From assembly GCA_049472355.1 (NCBI GenBank), contig JBLIRP010000004.1, positions 1-64,000 on the forward strand: a DNA stretch of 64,000 bases, in the 5' to 3' direction. The DNA comes from a bacterium (lineage in GTDB: Bacteria; SZUA-182; DTGQ01; JAFGSM01). A model generated the notes under the pieces. It made no database searches. It worked only from the letters and a program-made list of their open reading frames with translations, and was not told where the DNA came from. Below are positions 20,370 to 44,435 of the stretch, piece after piece. Position 1 is the first letter of the stretch. The number at the start of each line of letters is the position of its first letter. The position numbers and the translations under genes were made by a program.

Positions 20370-20782
20370 TCATACCAGCCACGGAAAAAACCGCTGTCGA
20401 TTCAGGGGTGAACTATACCATACGCCATTCATGTTGACAACCGCCCCGGACCACCGATCGGGAATTCCAATTGTGAACCTTCAGCCAGGGAGCACAAGCA
20501 GACATAGTTGCTCCGCTCGACACGAAGGGGGGATACGCCTTTAACCAAACATTGTTGGAGCGAAGCGAGGCTGCTCTTTTGTTACGAAAATATCCTGTAT
20601 TCATCTGAAAATATTATATTTTCATCCTTCGTGGCGCCACGAAGCGGCATGAGAGTTTGCTCCTTTCAACGACGGAAATGGCGACTGAAGGCATCCCTAT
20701 ATCGTTCCGTAGCCACGTATGCATGGCAAAAATCAACATTGACGGATCATCGTTGATATCATTGCCGGACCTTGCCAAGGGA

Positions 20783-23024: not shown

Positions 23025-23545
23025 CAAGCGTGGAAGGACCCAGGCATTATCTGCATCCCTGCAAACAAAGTACATAATGAAATGCAGAAGGTGGCTACCG
23101 AGAAATAGGGTTCGAAATCGTCAGGATCTACGTCACGGATAACGTCTCTTCCCATATGGAGAGGATGATGAACGAAACCTCCGTGTCAATGGACACCTTT
23201 CTTGCAAGTCCGGTCAAGAAAGGATATTCCCCACTGCCCCCCTGATTGCAGCCACCACAACGGCTCCTGTCCGCGCTCACCACATCCTTTTCAGGACATT
23301 CCATCATTTCTCTTGCCATACAATACCTATTGATACCCGCAACTTTCATTATATGGCTTTCTTATGCCATTGCTTTATGAGTCGACAAGACTTGCCGGGT
23401 GCATGTGCGATAACCTTGATCTCCCTTCCCAGGCCCTGGCATCTGCTATTGGTTTTTCGGTTTCCGAAATTTCACTTGAAAATCTCCTTTGGGGCATTTT
23501 CATGCTTCTTTGTGAGCCGAAGTCTCATGTGCGTTTCACTTCTGC

Positions 23546-23584
23546 ATTCTACATTCTACATTCTACATTCTACATTCTACATTC
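23546..23584. repeat. Heptanucleotide microsatellite (ACATTCT)x~5.5
   Basis: Read directly: attctacattctacattctacattctacattctacattc. Confidence 0.9.
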
Positions 23585-23637
23585 GCAGTTTCATCCGGCT
23601 CATGAGCGTTTCATCACATTCTCCATCAGCTTTTCTT

Positions 23638-23982
23638 TCAGGACTTCTCCTGCGCGAGCAATGGTTCCAGAAGAGCGACGAGCGCAGGGAGATCATCCTG
23701 CACGGTACGCCAGAGAATATCCAGGTTGATATCGAAATAGGCATGAACCAGCTTGTGGCGCATGCCGATGATGTCGTCCCAGGGGATATCCTGGAGTTGG
23801 TCCTGCGTGATTTCAGAGATTTGATAGGCAGCCTCGCCGATGATCTCGATATCCTTGACCAGCGACAAAACCAGCATGCGATCGCCGTCCAAGTCGCAAC
23901 GAACCCTGTTCCGTGCAAAACATATGGCCTCATGTGCGGCATCCAACATGTGTCGCAAGCGAACCGCATCATCCTTGTGCAT
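23638..23982 (-). CDS. hepT: HepT-like toxin (DUF86, nucleotidyltransferase substrate-binding family) of a HepT/MNT toxin-antitoxin pair
   Basis: Conserved R(x)4HxY-type motif (MRHKLVHAY) in a ~115-aa protein. Its start overlaps the end of the MNT gene by about 14 nt. Confidence 0.75.
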
Positions 23983-24271
23983 ACTGCAGCTCCGCTTCTT
24001 GCAGGACATCCTGGCGAAAATACCGGCTGAGGTCCTCCGCAGTCCTGAGGTCTACTTTTCGGCCACCGAAGATACCTGAAAGTTCGCGCTCCAATCGAGC
24101 AATGCCGAAAAGCCCTGGCGCATGTTCAGGCTCAAACTCGACCAGAACATCCACGTCGCTATCCGGTCCAAAATCCTCCCGCAGCACCGATCCAAAAAAC
24201 GCCAGACGCCGAATGTGATGCTGCTGACAGAAGGAGGCAAGTTGTTTTTGATCGAAAGATATGTTCACCAT
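23969..24271 (-). CDS. mntA: MNT-type minimal nucleotidyltransferase antitoxin (MntA)
   Basis: GSxxRGxxxxxSDxD motif ([20 protein letters not shown]) in a 100-aa protein. It lies upstream of and overlaps hepT. Confidence 0.8.
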
Positions 24272-31799: not shown

Positions 31800-33692
31800 A
31801 TGGACACACTCCTTTCCCGGATCGAGGGTCCCGAAGACCTCAAAGACATCCCCGTTGCGGATTTACCTTCGGTCGCCGAGGAGATACGGGACCTCATCAT
31901 CGCCACGGTGTCGAAACGGGGGGGACACCTCGCCTCCAGCCTAGGGGTGGTTGAACTGGCCATTGCCCTCCTCTACTGCTACGACACCCCGCAGGACAAG
32001 ATCATATGGGACGTGGGACACCAGTGCTATGCCCACAAGATCCTCACCGGCAGGAGGGATCGATTCTGCACCCTCAGGGACTACGCGGGCATCAGCGGAT
32101 TCCCCAAGTGCGAGGAGAGCCCCTATGACTGCTTCAACACCGGTCACAGCAGCACCTCCATCTCCGCAGGGCTGGGCATGGCGGTGGCCCGGGACCTCCA
32201 TGAACAAGACTACAAGATCGTCTGCGTCATCGGCGACGGCGCCATGACCGCCGGGATGGCATTCGAGGGCCTCAACCAGGCCGGTGCACTGAAGAAGGAC
32301 CTGTGCGTCATCCTGAACGACAACGCCATGTCCATATCGAAAAACGTGGGCGCCCTTGCCACCTATCTGAATCGCATCATCACCGGCCAGCTCTATAACC
32401 GCATCAAGGAGGACATGGAGACCGTACTCCGCTCCATCCCCCAGGTGGGTGCATCCATCTTCAAGTTCGCCGCCAAGATGGACGAGGCGGTCAAATCACT
32501 CTTCATCCCCGGCATCATGTTCGAGGAGCTGGGATTCAAATACGTGGGCCCCGTGGACGGGCACTCCCTGCCGAACCTCATCGACACCCTCAATGCGGTG
32601 AGGAAGCTGCGGCGTCCCATCCTGCTCCACGTGATCACCACCAAGGGGAAGGGATACAACCCGGCGGAGGAAAACGCCTCCTCCTTTCACAGCGCCCTTC
32701 CCTTCAGCATCGAATCGGGCAGATTCGAGCGGGGAGAGGGTTCGAGCATCACCTTTACCGAGGCATTCTCACAGGCCGTCTGCAGCCTGGCGGAACATGA
32801 CGAACGGATATGCGCCATCACCGCGGCAATGCCGGAGGGGACCGGCTTGGACCGTTTCGGGGAGCGGTTTCCACAGCGCTTCTTCGATGTGGGGATTGCG
32901 GAGCAGCATGCCCTGACCTTTGCCGCAGGCATGGCCACCCAGGGTATGAGACCGGTGGTGGCGATGTATTCCACCTTCCTGCAGCGGGGCTATGATCAGG
33001 TACTCCACGACATCTGTCTCCAGGGTCTTCCGGTATGCATCGCCCTGGACAGGGCAGGCATCGTGGGACGGGATGGTCCCACCCACAACGGCGTCTTCGA
33101 CCTCTCCTACCTGCGCCACCTGCCCAATATGATCCTCATGGCGCCGAAGGACGGGGATGAACTGGCGAGGATGCTCGCCACCGCCCTCGCGAGCAATCAG
33201 CCGGTCGCAATCCGGTACCCAAAGGAACGCACCAATGCTGATACGCTCCATGGGACCTTTGAGCCGCTTCCCATAGGCAAAGGAGAGGTCCTCAAGGAGG
33301 GGAAGGACTGCCTGCTGGTGGCCATCGGCTCCATGGCTTCCATGGCGCTCAAGGCGGCGGAAATCCTGGAGAGTGAAGGAATAGAGGCAACGGTGGTGAA
33401 CGCACGGTTCGTAAAGCCGCTGGACAGGGAGATCATCTGCGCCCTTGCTCAAAAGACGGGAAACGTCATCACCATAGAGGAAAACGTCCTGGCGGGGGGA
33501 TTCGGGAGCGCCGTCATGGAGATGCTCAATGAGGAGGGACTGGCCCAGGCTGTTCGGGTCTTTTGTATGGGTATTCCGGACACCTTTTCCCCGGCGGGCT
33601 CCCAGGAGAAGATACGCGGCCTGTACGGCCTCACCCCGAAGGGCATCGCCAAGTTCTGCCGCGGCGTGATCGCTCAAACCAAACTTTGTTAG
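31800..33692 (+). CDS. dxs: 1-deoxy-D-xylulose-5-phosphate synthase
   Basis: 630 aa with the TPP-binding motif GDGAMTAGMAFEGLNQAG and a transketolase-like C-terminal domain. It lies immediately downstream of ispA, a common arrangement. Confidence 0.95.
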   Translation: MDTLLSRIEGPEDLKDIPVADLPSVAEEIRDLIIATVSKRGGHLASSLGVVELAIALLYCYDTPQDKIIWDVGHQCYAHKILTGRRDRFCTLRDYAGISGFPKCEESPYDCFNTGHSSTSISAGLGMAVARDLHEQDYKIVCVIGDGAMTAGMAFEGLNQAGALKKDLCVILNDNAMSISKNVGALATYLNRIITGQLYNRIKEDMETVLRSIPQVGASIFKFAAKMDEAVKSLFIPGIMFEELGFKYVGPVDGHSLPNLIDTLNAVRKLRRPILLHVITTKGKGYNPAEENASSFHSALPFSIESGRFERGEGSSITFTEAFSQAVCSLAEHDERICAITAAMPEGTGLDRFGERFPQRFFDVGIAEQHALTFAAGMATQGMRPVVAMYSTFLQRGYDQVLHDICLQGLPVCIALDRAGIVGRDGPTHNGVFDLSYLRHLPNMILMAPKDGDELARMLATALASNQPVAIRYPKERTNADTLHGTFEPLPIGKGEVLKEGKDCLLVAIGSMASMALKAAEILESEGIEATVVNARFVKPLDREIICALAQKTGNVITIEENVLAGGFGSAVMEMLNEEGLAQAVRVFCMGIPDTFSPAGSQEKIRGLYGLTPKGIAKFCRGVIAQTKLC

Positions 33693-34076
33693 GGCGCAGC
33701 GTAAGCGAAGGCTCAAACCAAGCTTGCCAGGGCGGAGCGCAGCGGAGCCACTATGCTCCCCTTCCAATCCACCAAAAGGCCTTGCGACAACACCTTTAAA
33801 AAGCTTGCCAGGGCGGAGCGCAGCGGAGCCACTATGCTCCCCTTTCCATTCTCCCAAAAGGCCCGCAACTCCGCCTTTAAAAAGCTCCTCAGGCCTGGCG
33901 CAGCAAAGCTAATCGATCTCTTCCTATCACACAAAGGCAGCGTCTGGAATATCTACCTTTCCTTTGGGATCACAATCGCAATCACATCAGGCAGGCTGGC
34001 GAATATCTGCCCTGTCAACAGCGGGATTCGTAGAGCCATTGATAAATAATATGTAATTGATTATATTTGTAATATA
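33674..34076. repeat. Composite repeat element, copy 1. Partial unit overlaps the dxs stop, then two tandem ~82-bp units, a spacer, and a ~170-bp conserved module ending in a sigma70-like promoter.
   Basis: Units: aagcttgccagggcggagcgcagcggagccactatgctccccttccaatccaccaaaaggccttgcgacaacacctttaaaa, present twice. The module 33930-34076 is about 85-90% identical to 41090-41246. Confidence 0.85.
34040..34068 (+). promoter_or_regulatory. Near-consensus sigma70 promoter TTGATA-17nt-TATATT at the 3' end of the repeat module. It faces the hypothetical ORF and giant-protein gene.
   Basis: The -35 TTGATA is at 34040-34045 and the -10 TATATT at 34063-34068, with exactly 17-nt spacing. The identical promoter is found at 41207-41235. 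Confidence 0.5.
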
Positions 34077-34126
34077 CCTGAGATTGCTTCGGCTCTCGCC
34101 GTGCGCTTTGCTCGGGGCTTCTGCTA

Positions 34127-34236
34127 CACCGCCATGATCTTCTGATCACAACGAAGCATGAACGTTTTTAGAAACAAGTGATTATTTGAAAACCTTCACA
34201 TAAACCGCCATGATCTAGCGATCACAACGAAGGATG
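34127..34236. repeat. Two 34-bp direct repeats (ACCGCCATGATCTnnnGATCACAACGAAGnATGA) separated by 76 bp
   Basis: Copies are at 34127-34160 and 34203-34236. Each contains an internal TGATC...GATCA inverted repeat. Confidence 0.7.
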
Positions 34237-34359
34237 AAAATAAATAAAACAAAGGGCTGTTAAATTATTTTCTTATAAACGCAATGGCATCTTGGGGACC
34301 CCGTATCGAGTCGTCAAGGGCACCATTATAGAAAAAAATTACTGAATCGGAAAAGATAA

Positions 34360-34767
34360 ATGCCCTGGAGCAGGCGAAACGATTGCGAAATCCCTCTTTC
34401 TCGGACAGTTGCCGAAACCGAGGTTGAATGTTACGAAAAAGATGGATTACAGGAGAGGATAGATCTTTTAGGATATAGACACCGGAATCTCATTACGATT
34501 TTTGATGGTAAGATGTCGAATGTCATTGATTTCACAAACATAGTTGATCCGACCTGTTTTGATAGGCGTGACCCTGGTGGAACTGCATCACGTGCTTATT
34601 TACTGCGAAGTCAAAAAAACTGTTTATCCTCTTCCGGGGATTCCATTTTTTGCAGGGTGTTTGGGCGCTTATACCGTGGCGACCGAGGAATCTCTTCAGA
34701 AGAGACAATTTTTTCAATGACTCTCCATAGATCTGCCAGTAACAATTTTATTCCTTCCTTGCTTTAG
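34360..34767 (+). CDS. Hypothetical protein (135 aa)
   Basis: ORF between the promoter module and the giant gene. No recognisable domain and lower GC than neighbours. Confidence 0.25.
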   Translation: MPWSRRNDCEIPLSRTVAETEVECYEKDGLQERIDLLGYRHRNLITIFDGKMSNVIDFTNIVDPTCFDRRDPGGTASRAYLLRSQKNCLSSSGDSIFCRVFGRLYRGDRGISSEETIFSMTLHRSASNNFIPSLL

Positions 34768-34802
34768 CTTTTCCTTGTTTTAACAAAGTTAAGGGGGCAT
34801 AT

Positions 34803-37800
34803 ATGGCTTCAAAAAACCGTCATAAAAAAATCAGTTTCATAACCTTGGCAGGCTCGATTCTTCTTCTGTTTTTCTGGGTAAATACTTCCCGGGCGCAAAC
34901 GGCTGCCGAATACATTGCACAGGGGAGGGCGCATCTCTCACAGCATACGATGGAAGGTCTCATGAATGCCCATTCGAAATTTCAGGCAGCACTGGTGATT
35001 GAACCCAATAATCCAGAGGCCAATTTTTTCTTTTCGCTCACTCGCCTGCCTGCACTTTTGGATAATTCCGCATCATATACCGATGGTTTTCCCATTGAAA
35101 ATGCCAAGGAACTCTTGGATGGTCTTGATGTGGATGCGGAAGGGAGGGACCTCTTTGAATGGGAAGCCAAATTCACTGAAGACGGCAGCGGGGATGTCCT
35201 TTTGCCTTCTGATTCCCCCACAGGTGATGTAGTTCAGGATTTTTTAACATCTGTCATCATGTCCGAGATTGAAGGGGTACTTACCGATCTCACCAATTTG
35301 GATGCGACATTTACTACCGTGTTGACCGCTTCGGAGACCGGAGAGGAACAAGATATTGAGATCGATTATGGGGATATCCTTTTGTACCGATCCCTACTGA
35401 ATGTCGCCAAGATGGGGCTCTCTTTCATATCCGCCTACGACATGGATGTGGATATCGATACCTTAGTGAATATGAACAGCGAGCTTTTTGATGTGGACGA
35501 GGATCTTCTCGATGTTTATCCGAACCTGTTGACACTGCTCTTGGATGGCGACGATCTCATGGCTGATGCAGGGAATGCCCTGCTCTCGGCCATTGATGCC
35601 TTTGATGAGGCCTCTTTGTTCATTCAGGAGACAGAAACGGACAACCAGGAGGACGATCTTGTCACCCCTGATGAAATAGCCGGAGGTGGTGATTTCAAAT
35701 GCAAACCAATAGTGGAACAGATCAAAGGCTCCCTGGTGAACAAGGAGCCTGCAGACCTTTCGCGCATTGAGGAAACCTGGGAATTGACGGATGATCATGG
35801 AAATACCATCCTTATGAGAATAGAAAAAGACCATGCCGGCAATTTCCTGGGCGGGGACTTTCACGGCATCGATGGTTGCAGTTTTCTGGCCTGCCGCGGA
35901 TGGGTTGAAGACTTCTCAATGGTGGACTCAAATATAGTCATCACCACTGCATGCGGGGGCGGGTGTCCTTGCTCAGCCATACTCGAAGGTCGGATGAACG
36001 AAGATGGGACGCGAATCATTTCAGGGACGTATCTGTCGCAGGATTGTCTCGAAACTGTATCCGGGACCTTTACCGGACTAAGGACCGAATATGAAGAGAC
36101 TCCTATGAGGATTGATGTGAGCGAGTTCTTTGACGACCCCATCAGCATCCGGGATTATCTGCCTGGGCTTACCCATGATCCATACACACGTGAGATCATG
36201 CTGGCAAAAAGTCTTATGGAGTCTTTCCCGGACCGGACCCTGTCGGGCATCTTTCCTGACGGATTGCCGGTCGAAGGATTCGGGCTCGATCTGGTCACGA
36301 TCCGAGGGGGAAGCGCATCCGGGGGGTCTTCTTACGGCGTTGCTTCATGCCTTGTGTGGGGCCTTGCCCCCTGGGATATCGAGTCCCTCACCATTTATGG
36401 TCCTCTGGGTTTGCAGTATGAATTTGATCTGGAAAAGGACACCATGGTGTTTTACAAATACGGGATGATGTATAACGTTAGTGCTCCTTCCTATCCGCCT
36501 GAAGGGTGGTATGAATTTGTTTTGATCGACAAACAGGGTCGAAGCGTATCTGCAGGCAGATATTTCACCCCCAATCCCATCGATGTGGTGGATATAGCAA
36601 CAGGCGAATCTCCCGCAGACAAGGCCTATGTAAACACCCTGACGCCTGCCTTGAACTGGTCGCCTGTGACGGATGAACGGATTGATACGCTATATTACAG
36701 GGTGAATATCATGGACTGGAATGGGAAGGTCAATGTCTATTCATCCGACAGGGTTGCAGGCACGACAATAACGGTGCCGGCGGGTATCCTGATGCCCAAC
36801 GAGGTCTATCAATGGAATGTTCGGGTATTTGACAGCGCGAACGGCACCAGTGCGAATAATTTTTCTTCCAGTGATTGGAAGGTCTTTTGCACAGGCGGTG
36901 AAAACGATCCGCTGAATATCGAATTGGCCTTTGTTCATAGCAGGGTGGAGCCAGATGATATGCATGACATGACCCTTTTTGCCATCGATATAGACGGGCC
37001 TGCACCCTATGATATCGGCTCCCTGGCAGTGTCAGGCCCGGGAGGATTCTCGCATACCTTCGACCCCATCGATGATTACCATTCCGATATCTACCTGCAC
37101 CACGAAGACGGTATCCTTACGGACGGGACCTATACCTTTACTATTGTGGATGATCGAGACGGCAACACACTGTCTGTTGACCGGGATTTTACTTTCAATC
37201 GCCTGCCCGTCCCTGAAGAGCTGCATACCCCATCCTTTGAGTCATATGTCCGGACGACCACGCCAACCTTCAGCTGGAGCAGGGCACATGACGAGACGGT
37301 GGATCCCCTCTCCTATCGGGTGATGATCTATGATTATAATCATAACATTATTTACAAATCTCCTCGCTCCCCGGAGACATCCGCAACGGTTCCCCCGGAT
37401 TGCTTGAAAATCCATAACCCCTATTTCTGGCGCGTTCAGGTGTTTGATGGGACCTCCACGATTCAAAACAGCGCGGTTACGAATATGATGCCCTTTTATG
37501 TTGTAGCGGACAATCCACCTTCGATCATTTCAGGACAGATTGAGACAGGGATGAGCGGTTATACGGGCGGCGATATCTTCGTCTGCGTGTTCGATCAGGC
37601 CCTGCAACCTCTTGCATCTCCCCTCTTCTGTGTCACCCTTTCCGATATAGGTTCGTATACCCTGTATGACCCGCCTACCAATACGGATCTTTATATCTAT
37701 GCCCTCTGGGACAAGGACGGGAGTGATTGTTACACAGCCGGTGACTGGGCGGGGATATACGCTGAAAATCCGGTTGTGCTCGACGACGGCGGTATTTTTA

Positions 37801-40784
37801 CGAATGCCGATATCGCCTTAAATAACGAGATCCCATCGGCATCGGTGACCGGGCATGTCAGTTGTGATGATTTTGAGCCGGGTCTCGGTGACATCTCTAT
37901 TTTTGCATTTGACGGGGAAGATCCCTCAGATGCGCATCTGCTTGATTCCACGTCCATTGGGAGCCCATCCGAGGCATACACCCTGTCCAATCTTCCGGTC
38001 GATGTCTATGCCTACCTGTTTGCCCGTTGGGATAGGGATGGTAGCGGGACGAAGACACCACCGGACTGTCTGGGAAAATATTCAGAGAATCCGCTCCTTA
38101 TAGAAAGTGGGGGCCTTACGGGCATCGATATTGCGCTTATTCCAACGCTCATTGACCCATTTTCCGTAGATATTCACTGGATCTATTACAATGACAATTC
38201 CGGCAGAACGATTGATTATGATTATTTCGATGCGGATGACATCAATGAAGATGGAGATATCACCTTCCCCCCGGAGGCTCTCATATCCGTTCCTGATGAG
38301 GAATCAAATGCCATCTTCACCTGGGAATCCGTAATGGGAAATCAGGAAACATATATTTCCGGCGGGGTATATCAGGTGGCAGTACCCCAGGCCCAGGACG
38401 CGGTCAAGGCAATTCCCACTGCAGATATCAGCATATATAGTCCAATCGAGGAATGGGATGGGATCCCGTTATATATCGAGGATGCATTGCTCGATAATCC
38501 ATCGTGGATCCCCGAAGGTGCGGATGCGGATATGCACTATCTGAAATTGGCTTATAGCCCTGATCTTTCTAAACTCAATATCCTCATGAAATTGGAGGGT
38601 GAGGCGAATCCGAACGTCTGGTATCGTCTCTTCCTGGATAAGGATTTGGATGGAAGGACGGATGAACCGGGAGACTATCACATAGATTTTCAAAATCAAG
38701 CCGGTATTTGGGAGGTCGTAAGCCAGGGTTGGAATTCTGAAAATGGCTGGGACCGGTATCCGGTTGAGGAAAATGGCATGGTTGTCATATCCGGCGAATT
38801 CATACAAGCGACCGTAAACACCGCATCTTTCGGGCTTCCGGGTGAAGTCAATATCTACGGCCGTACAATGCAAAATGACTATCCTTACAGCAATTATGAC
38901 ACCTTTTCCACTAATTATTTAGAGGCGAACGGCCTATCCGTGATAGGCGGGCATAACATTACGGCATCATCTCCGACGGAATGGGAGTTTGCCCTGGGCA
39001 CTACGAACTTCCGAAATGTGTCGAAGGATCAGCATTATTACGATGTGTGTGTCGGGATCGGGGGTTCACGTTTTGCGAGAGGAAATGTAGAGGCCGATAT
39101 TGATGCGGCATGGTTTACCGGCACATACCAGGGCGTTTTTTATGAAGATGCCCTGATATTCACGGCACATGTTTACAATCAACTGGGTGGGGACGATCAC
39201 TATGCATGGGATTGGGACCTCGAAACCGGAGAGGGGCTCATCCTGACCGGGCTCGATCCGACAAGCACGACGTTGGACTTCAAGGTGACAACCACGGATG
39301 ATGGTCGGACCTTTTCCGGCTATTATCGCATAAACAGCAATGATGAATCGGACTGGCAGTTATTGGTCACGCATACCTTGCCCCCGGATACCGGAGTAAT
39401 ATGTGGCTTTCCTGAATGCTCCCCTTCGGTACATTTCGAGACGGGGATAATCCCGCTCGAATATCTTTGTGATGGTGATATCAATCACGATGATGAAATA
39501 ACCCCCATCGATGCCCTATGTGCCTTCCAAACCTATTTGGAGATATGTCCGACAAGATGCGGGCCATGTGAGGGCATATGCTGCGATGTGAATATGGATG
39601 ACGACTGCACGCCGGCCGATGCGCTGTGTATTTTCCGGAAATATCTCGGAATCCCCTGTTGTCTGGATAAAGAAAATCTCAACATAGGTAAGGCCTTTGC
39701 TCTTCTGAATACGGGGGAGCAAGGCACAACTCGGCTTATTGTGCTTGCGGATATCAGAGACGATACAGGGGCACAGGTGCCTTTTGCCGATGTATGGGTG
39801 GTTGATCCTCAAGGGAATACGATACAGCTAAGACGAAATAACGGGCACGGTCTTTATGAAGGAAGTCCTGCCGGTTCCGAGATCTTGCTCGGAGATTATA
39901 CGTTTTATGCCGAATACGCGATTCATGAAGCAGCGCCGGTAGTGAAAAATGTAAGTAGTTTAGAGATCCTTGAGCCTCCGGTGTTGTTAAATTTTCAGCT
40001 TCCTGAGGAAGGACAGCCCTGGGCTGTTTCCTGGGAGCAGGTTCCGGGAGCGCAAGGTTATCTTGTCATGCTCAGGTATGACAATAATGACGACCAACCG
40101 CTCTTTACAAATGTTGCTGATATTTTTTCAAGTACGTTGCCGACCGCTCATTCGGTGGAGATCCCTGCAGGATTGGTGCATCCTCATGCGGATTATGAGC
40201 TGGAAGTGATTGCGGCCAACGGCACGACTCTTGAAGGTACGACCGCGATTTCTTCGCTGCAAGAGGAATTCAGTACCAGGCCGCCATTTTCTGTTCCCTA
40301 TAAGACGATAGCTATTGATGGAAATTACAACGACTGGTCGGATCCAAACGACCTTGTGTATTGGGACACGGACGGCCCGGATTGTGCTGGGGGGCAGGAT
40401 ATCCAAAAGGTATATCTTGCGCAGGACGATACCTTCCTGTATGTGCGTTATGTGCTTGGCGGCCCGTTGGACCAGTCATTTGGATATAAGTTTGGTGACG
40501 GCCGGTTGCACACCTACGTTTCAAATACCAATGGTCAGAAGCGTTTATTCTGGGCCTGGGATCATACAGAGTATGACATAGATGATTTGGGTTATCCCTT
40601 GAGCAGCCAAGAGCAACCTGCTGATTTCGTTTCAATAGACGGGAATCAATTTGAAATAAAGTTCCTTAAATCAGACGCTCGGATTTGGCAAGGGAGGGAC
40701 ATTGATGCCTGGAGCGACCAAGGTCATGAAACTGTCTGCACGGACATGTGCCGGTTGCCGGAGATATTGGATTTGGATTTCTGA
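34803..40784 (+). CDS. Giant secreted repetitive protein (1993 aa). It has an N-terminal signal peptide and TPR-like region, multiple FN3/Ig-like beta modules, and a Cys-rich dockerin-type double calcium-binding repeat near residue 1560.
   Basis: Signal peptide MASKNRHKKISFITLAGSILLLFFWVNTSRAQT. Repeated modules include YVNTLTPALNWSPVTDERIDTLYYRVNIMDWNGKV...YQWNVRVFD and TPTFSWSRAHDETVDPLSYRVMIYDY...YFWRVQVFD. The dockerin-like segments are CDGDINHDDEITPIDALCAFQTYLE and CDVNMDDDCTPADALCIFRKYLG. Confidence 0.85.
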   Translation: MASKNRHKKISFITLAGSILLLFFWVNTSRAQTAAEYIAQGRAHLSQHTMEGLMNAHSKFQAALVIEPNNPEANFFFSLTRLPALLDNSASYTDGFPIENAKELLDGLDVDAEGRDLFEWEAKFTEDGSGDVLLPSDSPTGDVVQDFLTSVIMSEIEGVLTDLTNLDATFTTVLTASETGEEQDIEIDYGDILLYRSLLNVAKMGLSFISAYDMDVDIDTLVNMNSELFDVDEDLLDVYPNLLTLLLDGDDLMADAGNALLSAIDAFDEASLFIQETETDNQEDDLVTPDEIAGGGDFKCKPIVEQIKGSLVNKEPADLSRIEETWELTDDHGNTILMRIEKDHAGNFLGGDFHGIDGCSFLACRGWVEDFSMVDSNIVITTACGGGCPCSAILEGRMNEDGTRIISGTYLSQDCLETVSGTFTGLRTEYEETPMRIDVSEFFDDPISIRDYLPGLTHDPYTREIMLAKSLMESFPDRTLSGIFPDGLPVEGFGLDLVTIRGGSASGGSSYGVASCLVWGLAPWDIESLTIYGPLGLQYEFDLEKDTMVFYKYGMMYNVSAPSYPPEGWYEFVLIDKQGRSVSAGRYFTPNPIDVVDIATGESPADKAYVNTLTPALNWSPVTDERIDTLYYRVNIMDWNGKVNVYSSDRVAGTTITVPAGILMPNEVYQWNVRVFDSANGTSANNFSSSDWKVFCTGGENDPLNIELAFVHSRVEPDDMHDMTLFAIDIDGPAPYDIGSLAVSGPGGFSHTFDPIDDYHSDIYLHHEDGILTDGTYTFTIVDDRDGNTLSVDRDFTFNRLPVPEELHTPSFESYVRTTTPTFSWSRAHDETVDPLSYRVMIYDYNHNIIYKSPRSPETSATVPPDCLKIHNPYFWRVQVFDGTSTIQNSAVTNMMPFYVVADNPPSIISGQIETGMSGYTGGDIFVCVFDQALQPLASPLFCVTLSDIGSYTLYDPPTNTDLYIYALWDKDGSDCYTAGDWAGIYAENPVVLDDGGIFTNADIALNNEIPSASVTGHVSCDDFEPGLGDISIFAFDGEDPSDAHLLDSTSIGSPSEAYTLSNLPVDVYAYLFARWDRDGSGTKTPPDCLGKYSENPLLIESGGLTGIDIALIPTLIDPFSVDIHWIYYNDNSGRTIDYDYFDADDINEDGDITFPPEALISVPDEESNAIFTWESVMGNQETYISGGVYQVAVPQAQDAVKAIPTADISIYSPIEEWDGIPLYIEDALLDNPSWIPEGADADMHYLKLAYSPDLSKLNILMKLEGEANPNVWYRLFLDKDLDGRTDEPGDYHIDFQNQAGIWEVVSQGWNSENGWDRYPVEENGMVVISGEFIQATVNTASFGLPGEVNIYGRTMQNDYPYSNYDTFSTNYLEANGLSVIGGHNITASSPTEWEFALGTTNFRNVSKDQHYYDVCVGIGGSRFARGNVEADIDAAWFTGTYQGVFYEDALIFTAHVYNQLGGDDHYAWDWDLETGEGLILTGLDPTSTTLDFKVTTTDDGRTFSGYYRINSNDESDWQLLVTHTLPPDTGVICGFPECSPSVHFETGIIPLEYLCDGDINHDDEITPIDALCAFQTYLEICPTRCGPCEGICCDVNMDDDCTPADALCIFRKYLGIPCCLDKENLNIGKAFALLNTGEQGTTRLIVLADIRDDTGAQVPFADVWVVDPQGNTIQLRRNNGHGLYEGSPAGSEILLGDYTFYAEYAIHEAAPVVKNVSSLEILEPPVLLNFQLPEEGQPWAVSWEQVPGAQGYLVMLRYDNNDDQPLFTNVADIFSSTLPTAHSVEIPAGLVHPHADYELEVIAANGTTLEGTTAISSLQEEFSTRPPFSVPYKTIAIDGNYNDWSDPNDLVYWDTDGPDCAGGQDIQKVYLAQDDTFLYVRYVLGGPLDQSFGYKFGDGRLHTYVSNTNGQKRLFWAWDHTEYDIDDLGYPLSSQEQPADFVSIDGNQFEIKFLKSDARIWQGRDIDAWSDQGHETVCTDMCRLPEILDLDF

Positions 40785-40953
40785 TCTGATAAGAAATTTA
40801 ATTGTAGTCGGTGCCCAAATGGTGCCCATCGTTATGGAAAAATCGAAAACATGTAAAATCCCGAAAGGTTCATTAAGAGGGATTCTCGGCGAAAAATTAA
40901 TAAGTTCATGCCATTAAACAGATTATCCTCGACGAGTTAAGCGAACCAAAGCC

Positions 40954-41258
40954 TCAAACCAAACTTTGTTAGGGCGGAGCGTAAGCGGAGCCTCTATGCT
41001 CCCCTTCCAATCCACCAAAAGACCCTGCGATTACGCGTTTTAAAAAACTCTGTTAGGCCGAAGCGTAAGCGAAGCCACCAGACCTCTTCCTGACACACAA
41101 GGGCAGCGTTTGGCAGTACCTTCCTTCCCTTTGGGACCGACAATCGCAACCAAAACAGGCAGGCTGGTGAATGTCCGCTCTGTCAACAGCGGGATTCACT
41201 CAGCCATTGATAAATAATATGTAATTGATTATATTTGTAATATATATGCATAGGGTTT
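40954..41258. repeat. Composite repeat element, copy 2. It begins with a 24-nt duplicate of the dxs 3' end (ctcaaaccaaactttgttagggcg), then a degenerate unit and the conserved ~170-bp promoter module.
   Basis: 40954-40977 is identical to 33674-33697. 41090-41246 is about 85-90% identical to 33930-34076, including the TTGATA-17-TATATT promoter at 41207-41235. Confidence 0.85.
41207..41235 (+). promoter_or_regulatory. Second copy of the TTGATA-17nt-TATATT promoter, about 90 nt upstream of the 619-aa secreted protein gene
   Basis: Identical -35/-10/spacer to the copy at 34040-34068. Confidence 0.5.
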
Positions 41259-41323
41259 TCTCATGATTCTCCAAATTTGATGGGCCTCACTACATGATTT
41301 CGACAAGGTCATAATTGTGACAG

Positions 41324-43183
41324 GTGGACGCAATGATGCAAAGGGCAAGATGTCTATGCATCCTGACGGTCTTTATCGTGCTGCTTACCTTGATGACAGG
41401 TATGGCCGGGGCGAAGACGGGGACCGAGCACCCATTCCTTTTGGACGTTCCCGCCTCCTATAACCTGCCGTTGTGGATGTATTCCTGGAATCCCTCTTTG
41501 GCCTGGAAGGGCATGGCCGGGGCGAAGATAGAGATCCAATATCCAGTCCCTTTGGACATTCCCGGCTCTTATACATCATCGATAGGGATGCCTTTATGGA
41601 ATACACCCTTAGGCCGGATCGGGAATGGCCCTGCCGATCACCTCAGTCATGCCTATTATGCATGGTTGTATCCATCAACCCTCAATTATATTCCCCTGTG
41701 GTCCCATCCATGGTTCTATTCCTCTTCCCCATCCCAAAAAGCGGCAAAACCGTTCCACCCTGTTTTTGAGAACCTGAGTCTTTTCAAAATGGGCCCTCTC
41801 TATGCCCAAATCGATGAGCCCTACCGATATCTGTTCATCGCTGATTATACATATCATACATCCGAGAGCATAGAGTTGTACTTTATGGATGGTGATCAGC
41901 TCTCATGTACCAGTATTTTTGATCTCTTGCTTCATCCCGTAGAATTCCTCCTCTTTGTCAACGACCCCAATGATCCGAATGATCCGGTGGCGAAATACTG
42001 GATGGATCTCGGGGCGGACCCGGCCCTGTTTGGTGAAAACGATCCGCATATGGCTGCCCTTTTCGGCAGGGCATCGTTCAAGGTCGATCTCGACCTGCCC
42101 ATCTTTGCTGACCCGAATCTAAGGTTCGGTGGTCATTTGGCGGAGAGGATCATCGAACAGGGCCATATGGGGTGGAAGGTAACCGTGAATGGAGCTGTTC
42201 AGGGGCAGCCCCTGCAGATCAATCCGCTCCCGGTGGACCCCTATGATGGTATGCCCACCTATCTGCCGGCAAACTATACCGCGGTCAAGACGATAGATGC
42301 CTATGCCAAGCCATTCTATCGTATGGACGTTGTGTTCGTTCTGGAGGGCGCGCTGTGGAACTCCGGTGTGTCGGTCTGGCCGAATGTGGCTGCACTGGAT
42401 TACACGCCGCAGGATTTTGAAGACCTGATGGTGACCATCGAGGTGACCAACGGAATAGATTCGGAGGTCAGCATCTTTCCCATCACCGTACTTGATTACC
42501 CTGTGGAAAATTATGATCCTGTGCCGGCATCCGATGAGGTCGAACTGACAGTATATGTGGGAGAATCGTTTCGTTATGCTCTTTGGTGCATCGACCCGGA
42601 TTGTTTCATCTTCTCACAGGCTTACAATCTGTATGGAGAGGTCCCTGACACCACGCATGTGCCTTGGAATGCCCCGGGCATGGCATTCAGGACTGACATG
42701 TCCTCCCTGGAATGGGACATTCCGGGGGACTACTCCATCAGCAACTTCAATCCATCCTCGGGGCTCATCTCATGGGTCCCGGTGCGTGAAGGGATTCATA
42801 CTATGGTCGTGACCTGTTCGGACAACCATGGCGGTACCGCCGACATCGAATTGAAAATCTCCACTGAATGCCGCGGAGGCCCCTGCAATAATCCGCCCAT
42901 CATCACAGGCGCTCCCACACAAATCCTGACAATCATTGCCGGACAGGAGTTCGTCCTGGGTCCACCCGATTTCTCAGTGGAAGATCCGGATTACGATGAG
43001 ATCTACGCATCCTGCAATGTCGGTTCCTGCGAGAGGGATGGGGATGGCAACTTTGTGTGGAAATTTCAGAGCGACTTCCCAGGCTCTTATATGGTTGAGA
43101 TCATCTTCCACGATATCAGAGGGGGACATGCAATAATGGAATTCTTTGTGGACGTGCAACCATGGTGGGTGAATCCTTCATGA
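41324..43183 (+). CDS. Secreted hypothetical protein (619 aa) with an N-terminal signal peptide. The likely start is ATG 41333.
   Basis: MMQRARCLCILTVFIVLLTLMTGMAGA signal. There is an internal duplication (MAGAKTGTEHPFLLDVPASYNLPLWMYSWNPSLAW / MAGAKIEIQYPVPLDIPGSYTSSIGMPLWNTPLG). C-terminal beta-rich Ig-like regions. No catalytic motif recognised. Confidence 0.6.
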   Translation: MDAMMQRARCLCILTVFIVLLTLMTGMAGAKTGTEHPFLLDVPASYNLPLWMYSWNPSLAWKGMAGAKIEIQYPVPLDIPGSYTSSIGMPLWNTPLGRIGNGPADHLSHAYYAWLYPSTLNYIPLWSHPWFYSSSPSQKAAKPFHPVFENLSLFKMGPLYAQIDEPYRYLFIADYTYHTSESIELYFMDGDQLSCTSIFDLLLHPVEFLLFVNDPNDPNDPVAKYWMDLGADPALFGENDPHMAALFGRASFKVDLDLPIFADPNLRFGGHLAERIIEQGHMGWKVTVNGAVQGQPLQINPLPVDPYDGMPTYLPANYTAVKTIDAYAKPFYRMDVVFVLEGALWNSGVSVWPNVAALDYTPQDFEDLMVTIEVTNGIDSEVSIFPITVLDYPVENYDPVPASDEVELTVYVGESFRYALWCIDPDCFIFSQAYNLYGEVPDTTHVPWNAPGMAFRTDMSSLEWDIPGDYSISNFNPSSGLISWVPVREGIHTMVVTCSDNHGGTADIELKISTECRGGPCNNPPIITGAPTQILTIIAGQEFVLGPPDFSVEDPDYDEIYASCNVGSCERDGDGNFVWKFQSDFPGSYMVEIIFHDIRGGHAIMEFFVDVQPWWVNPS

Positions 43184-43439
43184 TACCCTTGCGGGAGAAT
43201 TCAGGCGCGCGGTCACGGAGATGCTCAATGAGGAAGCGCTCGCCCAGGCCACATCCAGGTCTTCCATATGGATATCCCGGACAACTCTTGCCCGGCGGGC
43301 TCACAGGAGAAGATCCGGGGCATCTGTAGTCTCAGCCCAAAGGGCATCACCCCCGGTTCTGCTGACGCGTGATTATTTTATCCTGACGCCCCCTCGAATC
43401 AAAAATTGAAATCCTGTCATTGCGGAGGAAGCAACCCGG

Positions 43440-43650
43440 AGCAACCAAGCTTGCCAGGGCGAAGCGCAGCGGAGCCACTATGCTCCCCTTCCAAACTACC
43501 AAAAGGCCTTGCGACAACACGTTTAAAAAGCTTGCCAGGGCGAAGCGCAGCGGAGCCACTATGCTCCCCTTCCAAACTACCAAAAGGCCTTGCGACAACA
43601 CCCTTAAAAAGCTTTGTTAGGGCAAGGTGCGGCGAAGCCTCTACGCCGAC
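43440..43650. repeat. Composite repeat element, copy 3 (two complete ~82-bp tandem units plus a partial unit, without the promoter module)
   Basis: The unit aagcttgccagggcgaagcgcagcggagccactatgctccccttccaaactaccaaaaggccttgcgacaacacgtttaaaa is present twice (43449-43530, 43531-43612). It lies downstream of the 619-aa gene. Confidence 0.85.
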
Positions 43651-43769
43651 TTCTCCAGCAACCTATACATTATTATATACGTTCTCAGGTACAGATTCCT
43701 TAATGAATCCATACCGATGAAGATGAACTGCCTCTCAATCAATAATCCCTCACAGCGCCTTCACCGGCA

Positions 43770-44435
43770 TCAGAACCGGTACACGATCCCCAGTGCATAC
43801 CCGACTTCCTGGACCATGTTGACCTCCATCCGCAGGTGCATGTTCTCCAGGATCGGTGCATACACCCCGGCTGCGATCAGCATTGAGGTCTGGTCGTGAT
43901 CCTGCCCGGGTGCCTCCAACTCGGAATAGAGGATGCCGAAGTTCAGGTAGGGCACACTGCGCACATACCGCCACTCCAGCCCGCCCGTGGCGATGATCCG
44001 CCGATGGGTGACATCCTCATCTTTATTCTCTCTTTCGTGCTTTGCCGTGCTGTACGAGAAGGAGATGGTGAAGTCCGCGGGCACCCCCATGGGAATGGCG
44101 CGCACTGCGTACGCCTTCCCCCCTATCCGGAAGGCAAGGGCGGGATCGAGGTCGTATGTCGTTCCGGCCAGCCGGACATCCATGTCCTGCCAGCTCAACC
44201 CGACGAAGATATCAAAGGTCTGGGGAAGGGAATAGCCGATCCTGGCGCCTCCCTGGGATACATCCAGCTCCTGGCCGTCCTTGGACTGCTCCTCGTAAAA
44301 CTCCCACTCCAGCCTCATGTCGAATCCCGGGGGGTACCCCTGGGCGTACATCCTCGGTGCAGAGACGAGGAGCAGGCACAGTGAGACTCCCACAGAGATC
44401 AAAAGCATACGGTACTTGTGGTGCATTCTGGGCAT
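43770..44435 (-). CDS. Outer-membrane beta-barrel protein (small OMP, 221 aa)
   Basis: Signal peptide, alternating amphipathic beta strands and a C-terminal aromatic terminus ...GIVYRF, the typical BAM recognition signal. Confidence 0.6.
   Translation of the reverse strand: MPRMHHKYRMLLISVGVSLCLLLVSAPRMYAQGYPPGFDMRLEWEFYEEQSKDGQELDVSQGGARIGYSLPQTFDIFVGLSWQDMDVRLAGTTYDLDPALAFRIGGKAYAVRAIPMGVPADFTISFSYSTAKHERENKDEDVTHRRIIATGGLEWRYVRSVPYLNFGILYSELEAPGQDHDQTSMLIAAGVYAPILENMHLRMEVNMVQEVGYALGIVYRF

What the first reader, a model, noticed from the sequence alone, without database searches (positions are those of the whole stretch)
33674..43650. Novel composite repeat family in three copies, starting with a duplicate of the dxs 3' end and bracketing two large secreted-protein genes
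Tandem ~82-bp units (aagcttgccagggcgRagcgcagcggagccactatgctccccttccaa...aaaaggccttgcgacaacacNtttaaaa, each with a GGAGC-cactat-GCTCC hairpin) occur at 33.7 kb (2.5 units), 40.96 kb (1 degenerate unit) and 43.45 kb (2.5 units). Copies 1 and 2 continue into a ~170-bp module that is about 85-90% identical (33930-34076 / 41090-41246). The first 24 nt of copy 2 (40954-40977) exactly duplicate the last 24 nt of dxs including its stop codon (33674-33697). That pattern resembles an att-site-like target duplication, but the 6.9-kb intervening segment carries no integrase or transposase. The units are not CRISPR-like, because they abut directly without spacers, and they are too long for REP elements.
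Basis: seen in the sequence. Interest (0 to 1): 0.65.

Follow-up and report, generated by a model that had tools for sequence, protein, structure and literature searches.

The report
Gene islet and repeats after dxs
About 9.7 kb carrying two large secreted-protein genes was inserted long ago into the tail of the essential gene dxs, leaving a decayed spare copy of that tail, and the 81-bp repeats around it belong to a lineage-specific family of scattered intergenic repeats, so the locus is an instructive but fairly ordinary hot spot of genome rearrangement.

Summary
The 81-bp tandem units, the shared ~150-bp module and a 24-nt exact match are all present and are far beyond chance.

A frameshifted remnant of the last ~200 nt of dxs lies at 43184-43386, just before copy 3. 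Two syntenic relatives (L001, L003) have dxs directly beside the downstream outer-membrane gene, so window ~33.7-43.2 kb is an insertion. A sister MAG (JBLIRN) has the same junction of 619-aa gene stop codon and dxs remnant. The event is therefore old and is not an assembly artefact.

- **The 24-nt "dxs duplicate"** is really the head of the repeat plus its flank. In this genome dxs has lost ~67 nt and now terminates inside the repeat.
- **The units** are generic dispersed intergenic repeats. At least four loci beside housekeeping genes in JBLIRN carry them, and the ancestral dxs spacer already held one solo head.
- **No structured RNA, attC or CRISPR** features were found.
- **The module** carries the best sigma-70-like promoter of the region, and it recurs upstream of a paralogue in another MAG.
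- **No recombinase** was found in or near the islet. Repeated duplicative, homology-driven insertion is the likeliest mechanism, and an integrase-borne islet that lost its integrase is the main rival.

Interest is modest.

The parts
31800..33692 (+). dxs (1-deoxy-D-xylulose-5-phosphate synthase, 630 aa). Its last six codons and TAG stop come from the repeat head and flank.
   Evidence: Pfam DXP_synthase_N, Transket_pyr and Transketolase_C. The C-terminus departs from L001 and JBLIRN (VVAPS*) after 'gtgatcgct'.
33673..33927 (+). Repeat block 1: truncated head (33679-33716), unit 1 (33717-33797), unit 2 (33798-33878), degenerate head (33879-~33927).
   Evidence: TRF, the repeat finder D1/D2/D5, nhmmer, alignment A1.
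33928..34076 (+). Promoter module 1, with sigma-70-like TTGATA-17-TATATT at 34039-34067.
   Evidence: 87.8% identical to module 2. It is the best promoter match of the 10.6-kb region.
34118..34238 (+). Two 45-nt direct repeats in the leader of the giant gene (34118-34162 and 34194-34238).
   Evidence: the repeat finder D8, 82%. A related leader motif lies upstream of paralogues in L009 (compared by eye).
34803..40784 (+). Cargo gene 1: 1993-aa protein with an N-terminal signal-like segment and an Ig-like domain.
   Evidence: Translation. Pfam Ig_Rha78A_N only. No close orthologue; the best is 49% identity over 49% of the query.
40953..41091 (+). Repeat block 2: 24-nt exact match to 33673-33696, one unit (40959-41042), degenerate head (41043-41091).
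41092..41246 (+). Promoter module 2, with TTGATA-17-TATATT at 41207-41235.
   Evidence: The same element lies upstream of a paralogue in JBLIRM (L009 1064-1114, E = 5e-7).
41324..43183 (+). Cargo gene 2: 619-aa (616 from ATG 41333) signal-bearing protein of a large lineage-specific multigene family. It is full length.
   Evidence: 117 homologues. End-to-end alignment to paralogue P0124. No Pfam match.
43184..43386 (+). Decayed remnant of the native dxs 3' end (frameshifted), running through the original TGA stop at 43384-43386.
   Evidence: the repeat finder D4/D6, translations, alignments. The same junction is present in JBLIRN L008 1834-2033.
43387..43443 (+). Native dxs-downstream spacer, colinear with L001 and JBLIRN.
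43444..43665 (+). Repeat block 3: unit 6 (43444-43524), unit 7 (43525-43605), and the ancestral solo head (43606-~43665), which is orthologous to the single head of L001 and JBLIRN.
43770..44435 (-). First gene of the conserved downstream block (OMP beta-barrel, then LpoB-like, DUF1425-like, TPR). It marks the right edge of the ancestral locus.
   Evidence: Pfam. Synteny with L001, L003 and L008.
20503..20575 (.). Weak, degenerate relic of the repeat head, with an inverted partial copy beside it, in another intergenic region.
   Evidence: nhmmer E = 0.12 and 0.4. Sequence read.

Best explanation
Two separate things are superimposed here.

**(1) The repeat family.** The 81-bp units belong to a lineage-specific, dispersed intergenic repeat family.
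- Each unit has a ~45-nt conserved head: CCAARCTTKYYAGG, then three overlapping GCG(N)NAGC motifs, then CCACTATGCT.
- The head is followed by a ~36-nt more variable tail.
- Units form short head-to-tail arrays that end in a partial head.
- A single head already lay in the ancestral spacer between dxs and the convergent outer-membrane gene.

**(2) The insertions.** That spacer and the dxs 3' end became a landing pad for accessory genes.
- In the common ancestor of this MAG and the JBLIRN MAG, a segment carrying a promoter module and the 619-aa gene was inserted by a duplicative event. This was a single-crossover (Campbell-type) or template-switch event that used local homology.
- The event duplicated the last ~200 nt of dxs, the spacer and the head. 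The upstream copy keeps dxs intact. The downstream copy has decayed.
- A second event of the same kind placed the 1993-aa gene behind another copy of heads plus promoter, giving copy 2. The giant gene was seen only in this MAG, so the event probably happened in the window lineage, but JBLIRN's contig ends at the 619 gene and its absence there is not shown.
- A ~67-nt deletion at microhomology then fused dxs to the head, so dxs now terminates inside the repeat.
- Full units were added at copy 3 and kept alike by unequal crossing-over or gene conversion.

**Shown:** the anatomy, the empty sites, the shared junction, the dispersal of the repeat, and the conserved promoter-like element.

**Inferred:** the recombination mechanism, the order of events, and any role of the heads in provoking rearrangement.
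For: **Empty site.** In L001 (dxs protein 89% identical) and L003 (78%), dxs is followed after 213 and 133 bp by the same minus-strand gene block.

**dxs remnant.** Window 43184-43386 aligns to the dxs 3' end, with frameshifts.

**Shared junction.** JBLIRN L008 has the orthologous 619-aa gene (79%) with its stop codon abutting a dxs remnant at the same position. Identity across the downstream gene block gives ((window, JBLIRN), L001): 92.0 / 89.4 / 89.8%.

**Age.** The two remnants are only 78% identical to each other, so the event is old.

**Functional 3' end looks native.** dS between the window and L001 is uniform along dxs: 0.357 in the 5' part, 0.385 in the 3' part and 0.373 in the duplicated 207 nt.

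**Composition.** The insert has 41-56% G+C (mean about 49%) against 54-62% in most flanking windows.

**Repeat dispersal.** The head pattern hits three other contigs of JBLIRN. They lie beside a response regulator, an acetyl-CoA synthetase and a DeoC aldolase / PAS kinase. Solo heads lie in the dxs spacer of L001 and L008.

**Recent homogenisation.** Units in copies 1 and 3 are 93-95% alike, while the adjacent dxs duplicates are 76% alike.

**Module as promoter.** The two 10/12 sigma-70 matches lie at the same module position, and the element recurs upstream of a paralogue in JBLIRM.

**No recombinase.** No recombinase domain was found in the islet ORFs, and none in the 20 large flanking ORFs that were scanned, at 11.8-26.2 kb and 48-63.3 kb.
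Against: - Three separate insertions at or near the dxs stop each left a direct repeat of target sequence: the ~200-nt remnant, the window's copy 2, and JBLIRN's 38-nt repeats around a 1.9-kb AT-rich cassette. This looks systematic, as a site-specific recombinase would produce.
- JBLIRN's extra cassette was inserted into the non-functional remnant and still made a duplication.
- The functional dxs tail is slightly more diverged from the remnant consensus than L001 is (11 versus 6 sites, not significant).
- The source of the circular or donor DNA is unknown.
- The rest of the source genome could not be searched, so copy number there is unknown. Within 64 kb there is only this locus and one weak relic.
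Confidence: 0.55

Rival explanations
1. A degenerate integrative islet (or tandem accretion of islets) inserted by a site-specific recombinase whose attB lies in the 3' end of dxs. The element brought its own dxs tail, as prophage e14 does for icd. The native tail was displaced to the far end, and the integrase gene was later lost or acts in trans.
For: - The target-gene tail is duplicated at the far end of the insert, while the gene stays intact.
- Relatives show empty sites.
- The insert has lower G+C.
- A further cassette in JBLIRN is flanked by 38-nt imperfect direct repeats spanning the dxs stop codon.
- The breakpoint of the window's dxs tail falls inside the same 38-nt region.
Against: - No recombinase domain in the islet ORFs or in the 20 large flanking ORFs scanned, and none among the genes called on L008.
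- The duplicated stretches differ in extent and position (~200 nt, 38 nt, and head plus promoter), not one fixed core.
- dS of the functional tail against L001 equals that of the rest of dxs, so the tail is not detectably foreign.
Confidence: 0.25
2. The heads are recombination sites of an integron-like or other cassette system (attC-like, containing GTTAGGG ~ GTTRRRY), and the two cargo genes are cassettes captured at such sites.
For: - The layout is head-X-head-Y-head, where X or Y is either a 36-nt tail or a multi-kb gene.
- GTTAGGG or GTTAGGC is present in four window heads and in the L001, L006 and L008 heads.
Against: - Most full units have GCCAGGG instead of GTTAGGG.
- There is no inverse core and no extended imperfect palindrome. 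DNA folds of units and cassette ends give z from -0.74 to +1.58.
- Units abut without ORFs between them.
- Heads sit in ordinary intergenic regions with no cassettes.
- The right boundary of the 619-aa 'cassette' is the dxs remnant, not a head.
- Paralogues of the cargo at other loci have no heads.
- No IntI-like gene was found.
Confidence: 0.05
3. The units encode or form a structured RNA (an sRNA array, 3'-UTR element or terminator/insulator) selected for its fold, with the GGAGC-cactat-GCTCC hairpin as its core.
For: - The units lie directly after the dxs stop and upstream of promoters.
- One unit hairpin scores as terminator-like (33825-33840).
Against: - No Rfam match at gathering score or at E <= 1.
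- MFE z-scores are 0.33 and -0.29 for the two strands.
- The alifold consensus has 9 pairs and no compensatory change.
- The GGAGC/GCTCC stem is broken in the relatives' copies (GAAGC...GCTGC) while the loop sequence is invariant.
Confidence: 0.07
4. Assembly artefact: a collapsed or chimeric MAG contig creates apparent duplications.
For: The source is a MAG. The sister MAG's contig breaks exactly at the start of the 619-aa gene, where the repeats would lie.
Against: - The copies are diverged (76-95%), not identical.
- All large ORFs are intact.
- The junction of 619-gene stop and dxs remnant is reproduced in an independently assembled genome.
Confidence: 0.03

Closest known systems
Prophage e14 / phage 21 integration into icd of E. 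coli (icd plus the icdC pseudogene)
   Same: An essential or central metabolic gene stays intact. A C-terminal fragment pseudogene of the same gene lies at the far end of the inserted DNA. Recombination between the two copies would restore an empty site (PMC13626634).
   Different: There is no integrase or any phage gene here. The cargo is two secreted-protein genes. The duplicated stretch also includes the intergenic spacer and a repeat element. The functional tail is not detectably foreign.
Interspersed intergenic mosaic repeats (E. coli BIME/REP, enterobacterial ERIC, pneumococcal BOX, neisserial NIME/dRS3). This comparison is from my own knowledge.
   Same: Short non-coding elements confined to intergenic regions, dispersed at several loci, modular (conserved head plus variable tail), arranged in short tandem arrays, lineage-specific, and occasionally altering the ends of ORFs.
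   Different: There is no sequence similarity to any of them. The element has no palindromic REP-type stem and no inverted-repeat pairs. Copy number appears low (a handful of loci found). The head carries three overlapping GCG(N)NAGC motifs on one strand.
Integron cassette arrays / CALIN (attC sites)
   Same: Genes are separated by copies of a short conserved site, new genes appear to be added next to the anchoring gene, and there is a GTTAGGG-like motif.
   Different: Three defining attC features tested here were not met, and no IntI was found in the ORFs scanned (see membership test).
Mini-hairpin DNA motif d(GCGNAGC)/d(GCGNNAGC) (Hirao and colleagues; review PMC13037366)
   Same: Every intact head holds three overlapping matches to this consensus on one strand only. 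The bases that vary between copies are the N positions. A 1-nt insertion variant (GCGTAAGC) fits the 8-mer consensus, and a 5-nt in-phase deletion in L008 keeps the pattern.
   Different: The known natural examples are single motifs at ssDNA priming sites and phage N4 promoters, not a chromosomal dispersed repeat. Nothing here shows the hairpin forms or matters. The copies found by pattern search were selected for the motif.

Membership tests
Integron attC site / cassette array | Inverse core R'' (RYYYAAC) and core R' (GTTRRRY) at the two ends of each site | tested here: not met
   GTTAGGG/GTTAGGC is present in only some heads. The five full window units and the L005b and L007 heads have GCCAGGG. 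No matching inverse core lies upstream.
Integron attC site / cassette array | Imperfect palindrome that folds as a long single-strand hairpin | tested here: not met
   DNA folds of the units and of the 127 nt ending at the GTTAGGG of copy 2, on both strands, give z from -0.74 to +1.58.
Integron attC site / cassette array | Sites separated by ORF-bearing cassettes, with an IntI integrase at one end (or a CALIN of several cassettes) | tested here: not met
   Units abut directly. Heads occur alone in ordinary intergenic regions. No integrase domain was found in the islet ORFs or in the 20 large flanking ORFs scanned.
Integrase-mediated genomic island in the 3' end of a gene (e14/icd type) | Direct repeat of the target gene's 3' end at both ends of the insert, with an intact gene | tested here: met
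   33486-33692 against 43184-43386, 76% identical, the latter frameshifted.
Integrase-mediated genomic island in the 3' end of a gene (e14/icd type) | Empty site in related genomes | tested here: met
   L001 and L003.
Integrase-mediated genomic island in the 3' end of a gene (e14/icd type) | Tyrosine or serine recombinase gene inside the element next to an att site | tested here: not met
   No Pfam recombinase domain in the three ORFs of the insert, and none among the genes called on JBLIRN L008.
Integrase-mediated genomic island in the 3' end of a gene (e14/icd type) | The gene tail now in use is element-borne (foreign) | tested here: inconclusive
   dS is uniform along dxs. Three- and four-way site counts are star-like: 14/29/9 and 11 versus 6.
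Dispersed intergenic repeat family (REP/BIME/ERIC/BOX-like class) | Several non-coding copies at unrelated intergenic loci of one genome | tested here: met
   JBLIRN contigs 4, 24, 64 and 78. In the source genome only this locus and a weak relic were found within 64 kb. The rest of the source genome was not available.
Dispersed intergenic repeat family (REP/BIME/ERIC/BOX-like class) | REP-type palindrome and an associated RAYT transposase | tested here: not met
   No conserved palindrome. No transposase domain in the large ORFs scanned. The genome-wide presence of a RAYT is not testable here.
CRISPR array | Identical repeats separated by unrelated spacers of similar length | tested here: not met
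   The 'spacer' halves are homologous to each other within and between arrays.
Structured RNA family (Rfam or new) | Match to a covariance model, or a stable fold with compensatory changes | tested here: not met
   no match; z about 0; 0 compensatory pairs.
Mini-hairpin DNA motif GCGNAGC / GCGNNAGC | Sequence consensus present | tested here: met
   Triple overlapping matches occur in 12 heads and nowhere else in the 205 kb held, on one strand only. The consensus is taken from PMC13037366.
Mini-hairpin DNA motif GCGNAGC / GCGNNAGC | The hairpin forms on single-stranded DNA and has a biological effect | not testable with these tools
   Needs melting, nuclease and replication-pausing experiments.

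The most novel reading that the evidence does not exclude
The repeat heads, each with three overlapping GCG(N)NAGC mini-hairpin motifs on one strand, are single-strand-active sites. They would act either as replication or priming pause sites, or as targets of an unknown trans-acting enzyme. In that reading they drive both array growth and the capture of promoter-plus-gene cassettes next to housekeeping genes, which would be a cassette-accretion system unrelated to integrons.
Probability: 0.07. Interest if true: 0.75.

Novelty: new member of a known kind. Interest (0 to 1): 0.3.

Why it matters
The locus gives a clean, dated example of how accessory surface-protein genes accumulate beside an essential gene in an uncultivated lineage without disrupting it. 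It shows an ancestral empty site, a shared old junction, a decaying spare gene tail and a later second insertion. It also shows an essential enzyme acquiring a new C-terminus and stop codon from a repeat element.

The repeat family itself has no match in Rfam, or in the plasmid and viral collections searched. Its triple mini-hairpin consensus is a testable lead on why some intergenic repeats expand and attract rearrangements.

None of this overturns current understanding.

Tried and rejected
- **Public collections.** The exact core pattern found nothing in genome contigs or metagenome contigs. A degenerate pattern found nothing in metagenome contigs or viral contigs and hit only one MAG in genome contigs. 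The source genome itself is not in the searchable collections: look-ups of P0001 and P0177 failed. A genome-wide copy count was therefore impossible.
- **Other similarity searches.** Plasmid blastn gave no match. Rfam at gathering score and at E <= 1 gave none.
- **Paralogy of the two cargo proteins** was rejected. ORF135 is not related to the 619-aa protein.
- **A recombination breakpoint in dxs.** Nucleotide identity drops at 33085-33285, but the drop comes from dN, not dS. I rejected it as evidence for a foreign tail.
- **Association of heads or modules with paralogues of the 619-aa family.** None was found in 36 kb around three paralogues in JBLIRN. Only the promoter element recurs, once, in JBLIRM.
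- **Sigma-54 promoter, type III toxin-antitoxin and DGR readings** were considered by eye and dropped. There is no -24/-12 match, no toxin gene and no reverse transcriptase.
- **A coding reading of the 81-nt (27-codon) unit** was dropped because sister arrays have an 82-nt period.
Full report
**1. Observation**

- Tandem Repeats Finder reports 81-bp arrays at 33720-33886 (2.1 copies) and 43447-43614 (2.1 copies).
- The repeat finder and an nhmmer profile add one unit at ~40959-41042 and partial heads at 33679-33716, 41043-41091 and 43606-43665.
- The 23-nt core occurs five times in the window, against none in 100 shuffles.
- The module 33930-34076 / 41090-41246 is 87.8% identical.
It covers the last 20 nt of dxs (stop at 33690-33692) plus four further bases.
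- The three ORFs inside the bracketed segment have no recombinase domain.

**2.

The repeat finder also pairs 33488-33650 with 43187-43351 at ~80% identity (D4 and D6). Translation shows that 43185-43373 is a frameshifted copy of the dxs C-terminus. Copy 3 is therefore preceded by a dead dxs tail that still runs into the original TGA stop (43384-43386) and the native downstream spacer.

**3. Comparison with relatives**

The closest dxs outside the source MAG (P0002, 89% protein identity) lies on JGI contig L001. A more distant one (78%) lies on L003. In both, dxs is followed after 213 or 133 bp by the same convergent block: an OMP-like gene, LpoB, DUF1425, TPR and nitroreductase. In the window that block starts at 43770. 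So ~33.7-43.2 kb of the window is an insertion relative to the ancestral arrangement.

The L001 spacer reads as follows:
- the dxs stop;
- ~70 nt of spacer;
- one solo head (ccaaactttgttagggcgaagcgcagcgaagccactatgctgcccc);
- unique sequence.

Window copy 3 is colinear with this, but has two full units inserted before the ancestral head.

The window's working dxs departs from the L001 and JBLIRN ending (…VVAPS*) after 'gtgatcgct'. It then continues into 'caaaccaaactttgttag', which is the flank and head of the repeat. This is consistent with a ~67-nt deletion at ATCGC microhomology, which I infer from reading the sequences. The '24 nt of dxs' duplicated at copy 2 are therefore repeat sequence that dxs has annexed, not dxs sequence captured by the repeat.

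**4. Age and authenticity**

The 619-aa protein has a 79% orthologue in a sister MAG (JBLIRN010000078, L008). There its stop codon is followed at the same position by a dxs remnant, then the native spacer, a solo head and the same downstream block.

Nucleotide identity of the downstream block gives ((window, JBLIRN), L001): window-JBLIRN 92.0%, window-L001 89.4%, L001-JBLIRN 89.8%. The insertion therefore happened once, in the common ancestor of the window organism and JBLIRN, shortly after the split from L001.

The two remnants are only 78% identical to each other, as expected for neutral decay since then. An independent assembly with the same junction, together with the divergence between copies, excludes an assembly artefact.

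JBLIRN additionally has a 1.9-kb AT-rich cassette (30-42% G+C, PEP-CTERM protein) inside the remnant. It is flanked by 38-nt imperfect direct repeats that span the old dxs stop.

The giant 1993-aa gene has no close orthologue anywhere; the best match is 49% identity over half its length. It is probably a later addition in the window lineage, although JBLIRN's contig ends at the 619 gene, so this cannot be proven.

**5. Is the working dxs tail foreign?**

Nucleotide identity to L001 falls in the last 600 nt. Nei-Gojobori estimates show the fall comes from dN. dS is flat: 0.357 in the 5' part, 0.385 in the 3' part and 0.373 in the duplicated 207 nt.

Three-way site counts are star-like: working tail 14 unique sites, remnant 29, L001 9. 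The consensus of the two remnants agrees with L001 against the working tail at 11 sites, and with the working tail against L001 at 6. This difference is not significant. The data neither require nor exclude an element-borne tail.

**6. The repeat family**

A degenerate head pattern found three further contigs of JBLIRN and nothing else in 185,579 representative genomes. It found nothing in the metagenome or viral collections.
- The JBLIRN arrays have 1-3 units with a period of 81-82 bp, ending in a partial head.
- They lie in ordinary intergenic regions: next to a response regulator, upstream of acetyl-CoA synthetase, and between a PAS kinase and a DeoC aldolase.
- In a further 36 kb of JBLIRN around paralogues of the cargo gene there are no heads.
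- In the 64-kb window there is only the dxs locus and a weak relic at 20503-20575.

The family is thus dispersed, low in copy number, and not tied to the cargo genes.

Units in copies 1 and 3 are 93-95% alike, while the neighbouring dxs duplicates are 76% alike. JBLIRN has no full unit at its copy 3. The window's units were therefore added or homogenised recently, by unequal crossing-over or gene conversion (inference).

**7. Structure**

- No Rfam family matches.
- Folding of the array gives z = 0.33 and -0.29 for the two strands.
- The alignment fold has nine pairs and no compensatory change.
- DNA folds of single units and of the cassette end give z from -0.74 to +1.58.

The constraint is therefore on sequence, not on that hairpin.

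What is conserved is a run of three overlapping GCG(N)NAGC motifs on one strand. This is the published consensus for extraordinarily stable DNA mini-hairpins, GCGNAGC / GCGNNAGC (PMC13037366).
- Triple clusters occur in 12 heads and nowhere else in the 205 kb held.
- 21 of the 44 plus-strand single motifs in the window lie in the ~0.7 kb of repeat blocks, and none lie there on the minus strand.
- Differences between intact copies fall on the N positions.
- A 1-nt insertion variant gives GCGTAAGC, which fits the 8-mer consensus.
- L008's head lacks exactly one 5-nt period.

One caveat applies. The JBLIRN copies found by pattern search were selected for this motif. The unbiased cases are the window copies, L001, L008, L005a and L006b. 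A protein that reads a pentameric direct repeat would explain the same pattern.

**8. The module**

The two best sigma-70-type matches in 33.4-44.0 kb (TTGATA-17-TATATT, 10 of 12) lie at equivalent positions of the two modules, 34039-34067 and 41207-41235. The same ~50-nt element lies upstream of a paralogue of the 619-aa gene on a JBLIRM contig (L009 1064-1114, E = 5e-7). The first ~50 nt of each 'module' is a degenerate head.

I read the module as the promoter region of this secreted-protein gene family. That family has 117 detectable members, including at least five paralogues in the source MAG.

**9. Mechanism**

The layout is: working dxs tail - heads - promoter - giant gene - (flank, head, head) - promoter - 619 gene - dead dxs tail - spacer - heads.

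This is what two successive single-crossover (Campbell-type) or template-switch insertions would leave. Each would use the sequence already present at the junction as homology: first the dxs tail, spacer and head, then the heads plus promoter.

No recombinase domain was found in the islet ORFs or in the 20 large flanking ORFs that were scanned, at 11.8-26.2 kb and 48-63.3 kb. The duplicated stretches also differ in extent at each event. I therefore favour homology-driven duplicative insertion (confidence 0.55).

The e14/icd-type model, in which a site-specific islet later lost its integrase, is the main rival (0.25). Three duplications clustered around the dxs stop look systematic, and e14 shows the same icd/icdC anatomy (PMC13626634).

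The other readings fail their defining tests or have no support (see the membership table and the rival explanations):
- integron-like attC: 0.05;
- structured RNA: 0.07;
- assembly artefact: 0.03;
- CRISPR: not given a confidence.

**10. Verdict**

It is wrong in its key inference. The 24-nt match is repeat sequence, the true duplicate is the remnant at 43184-43386, and the units are a generic dispersed repeat.

The finding is a new member of known kinds: a lineage-specific intergenic repeat family and an accessory-gene islet at a gene-tail hot spot. The triple mini-hairpin consensus is a curiosity worth a bench test.

Interest: 0.3.

Noticed in passing
L008 2013-3993 (JBLIRN010000078): A 1.9-kb AT-rich (30-42% G+C) cassette encoding a 249-aa PEP-CTERM protein is inserted into the dead dxs remnant. 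It is flanked by 38-nt imperfect direct repeats (79%) that span the old dxs stop codon. It carries no recombinase gene.
   Followed up: partly
window 34118-34162 and 34194-34238: Two 45-nt direct repeats (82%), each with a TGATC...GATCA palindrome, lie in the long leader of the giant gene. By eye, the nearby 34085-34150 resembles a 'CGCTTCGCTCGGGGCTT...CACCGAAATGA' leader motif upstream of both paralogues in L009 (1245-1330 and 3315-3435).
   Followed up: partly
window 41324-43183; L009, L010, L011: The 619-aa protein belongs to a large family confined to this group of MAGs. It has 117 hits, no Pfam domain, and at least five paralogues in the source genome. In JBLIRN two paralogues sit inside the glycine-cleavage gene cluster, between gcvT and gcvH (L010 10001-15603).
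   Followed up: partly
window 34803-40784: The 1993-aa protein has a signal-like N-terminus, Ig-like repeats and, near residues 1555-1625, two Cys/Asp-rich 'DxNxDxxITPxDAL' stretches that look like dockerin or EF-hand calcium-binding repeats. Pfam did not call these. It has no close orthologue in 5.8 billion proteins.
   Followed up: partly
window 20503-20575: A degenerate solo head (aaccaaacattgttggagcgaagcgaggctgctc), with an inverted partial copy 25 nt upstream, lies between a methyltransferase gene and a glycosyltransferase gene. The nhmmer E-values are only 0.12 and 0.4.
   Followed up: partly
window 23540-23584: A near-perfect heptamer tandem repeat, TTCTACA x 6.4 (97% matches), lies inside or at the edge of the unannotated ORF 23353-24030.
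   Followed up: no
window 9802-9932: Two adjacent short tandem repeats are present: a 30-nt unit x 2 and a 12-nt unit CTTCGGGGGCTT x 4.3.
   Followed up: no
L001 15862-17106: The relative L001 has a DDE transposase (DDE_Tnp_1_4) and a CxxCxxCC gene between the nitroreductase and cheA genes. Neither is present at that position in JBLIRN L008. The corresponding window interval was not scanned.
   Followed up: no
L003 7170-7250: The dxs spacer of the more distant relative has no head. It does have a hairpin-like element (aaggccct-aaagcttgcttcgcttcgcta-agggcctt) whose loop contains GCGAAGCGAAGC on the other strand, together with AAGCTT and TAGGGCC. These are the same short words as the head, in a different order.
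   Followed up: no
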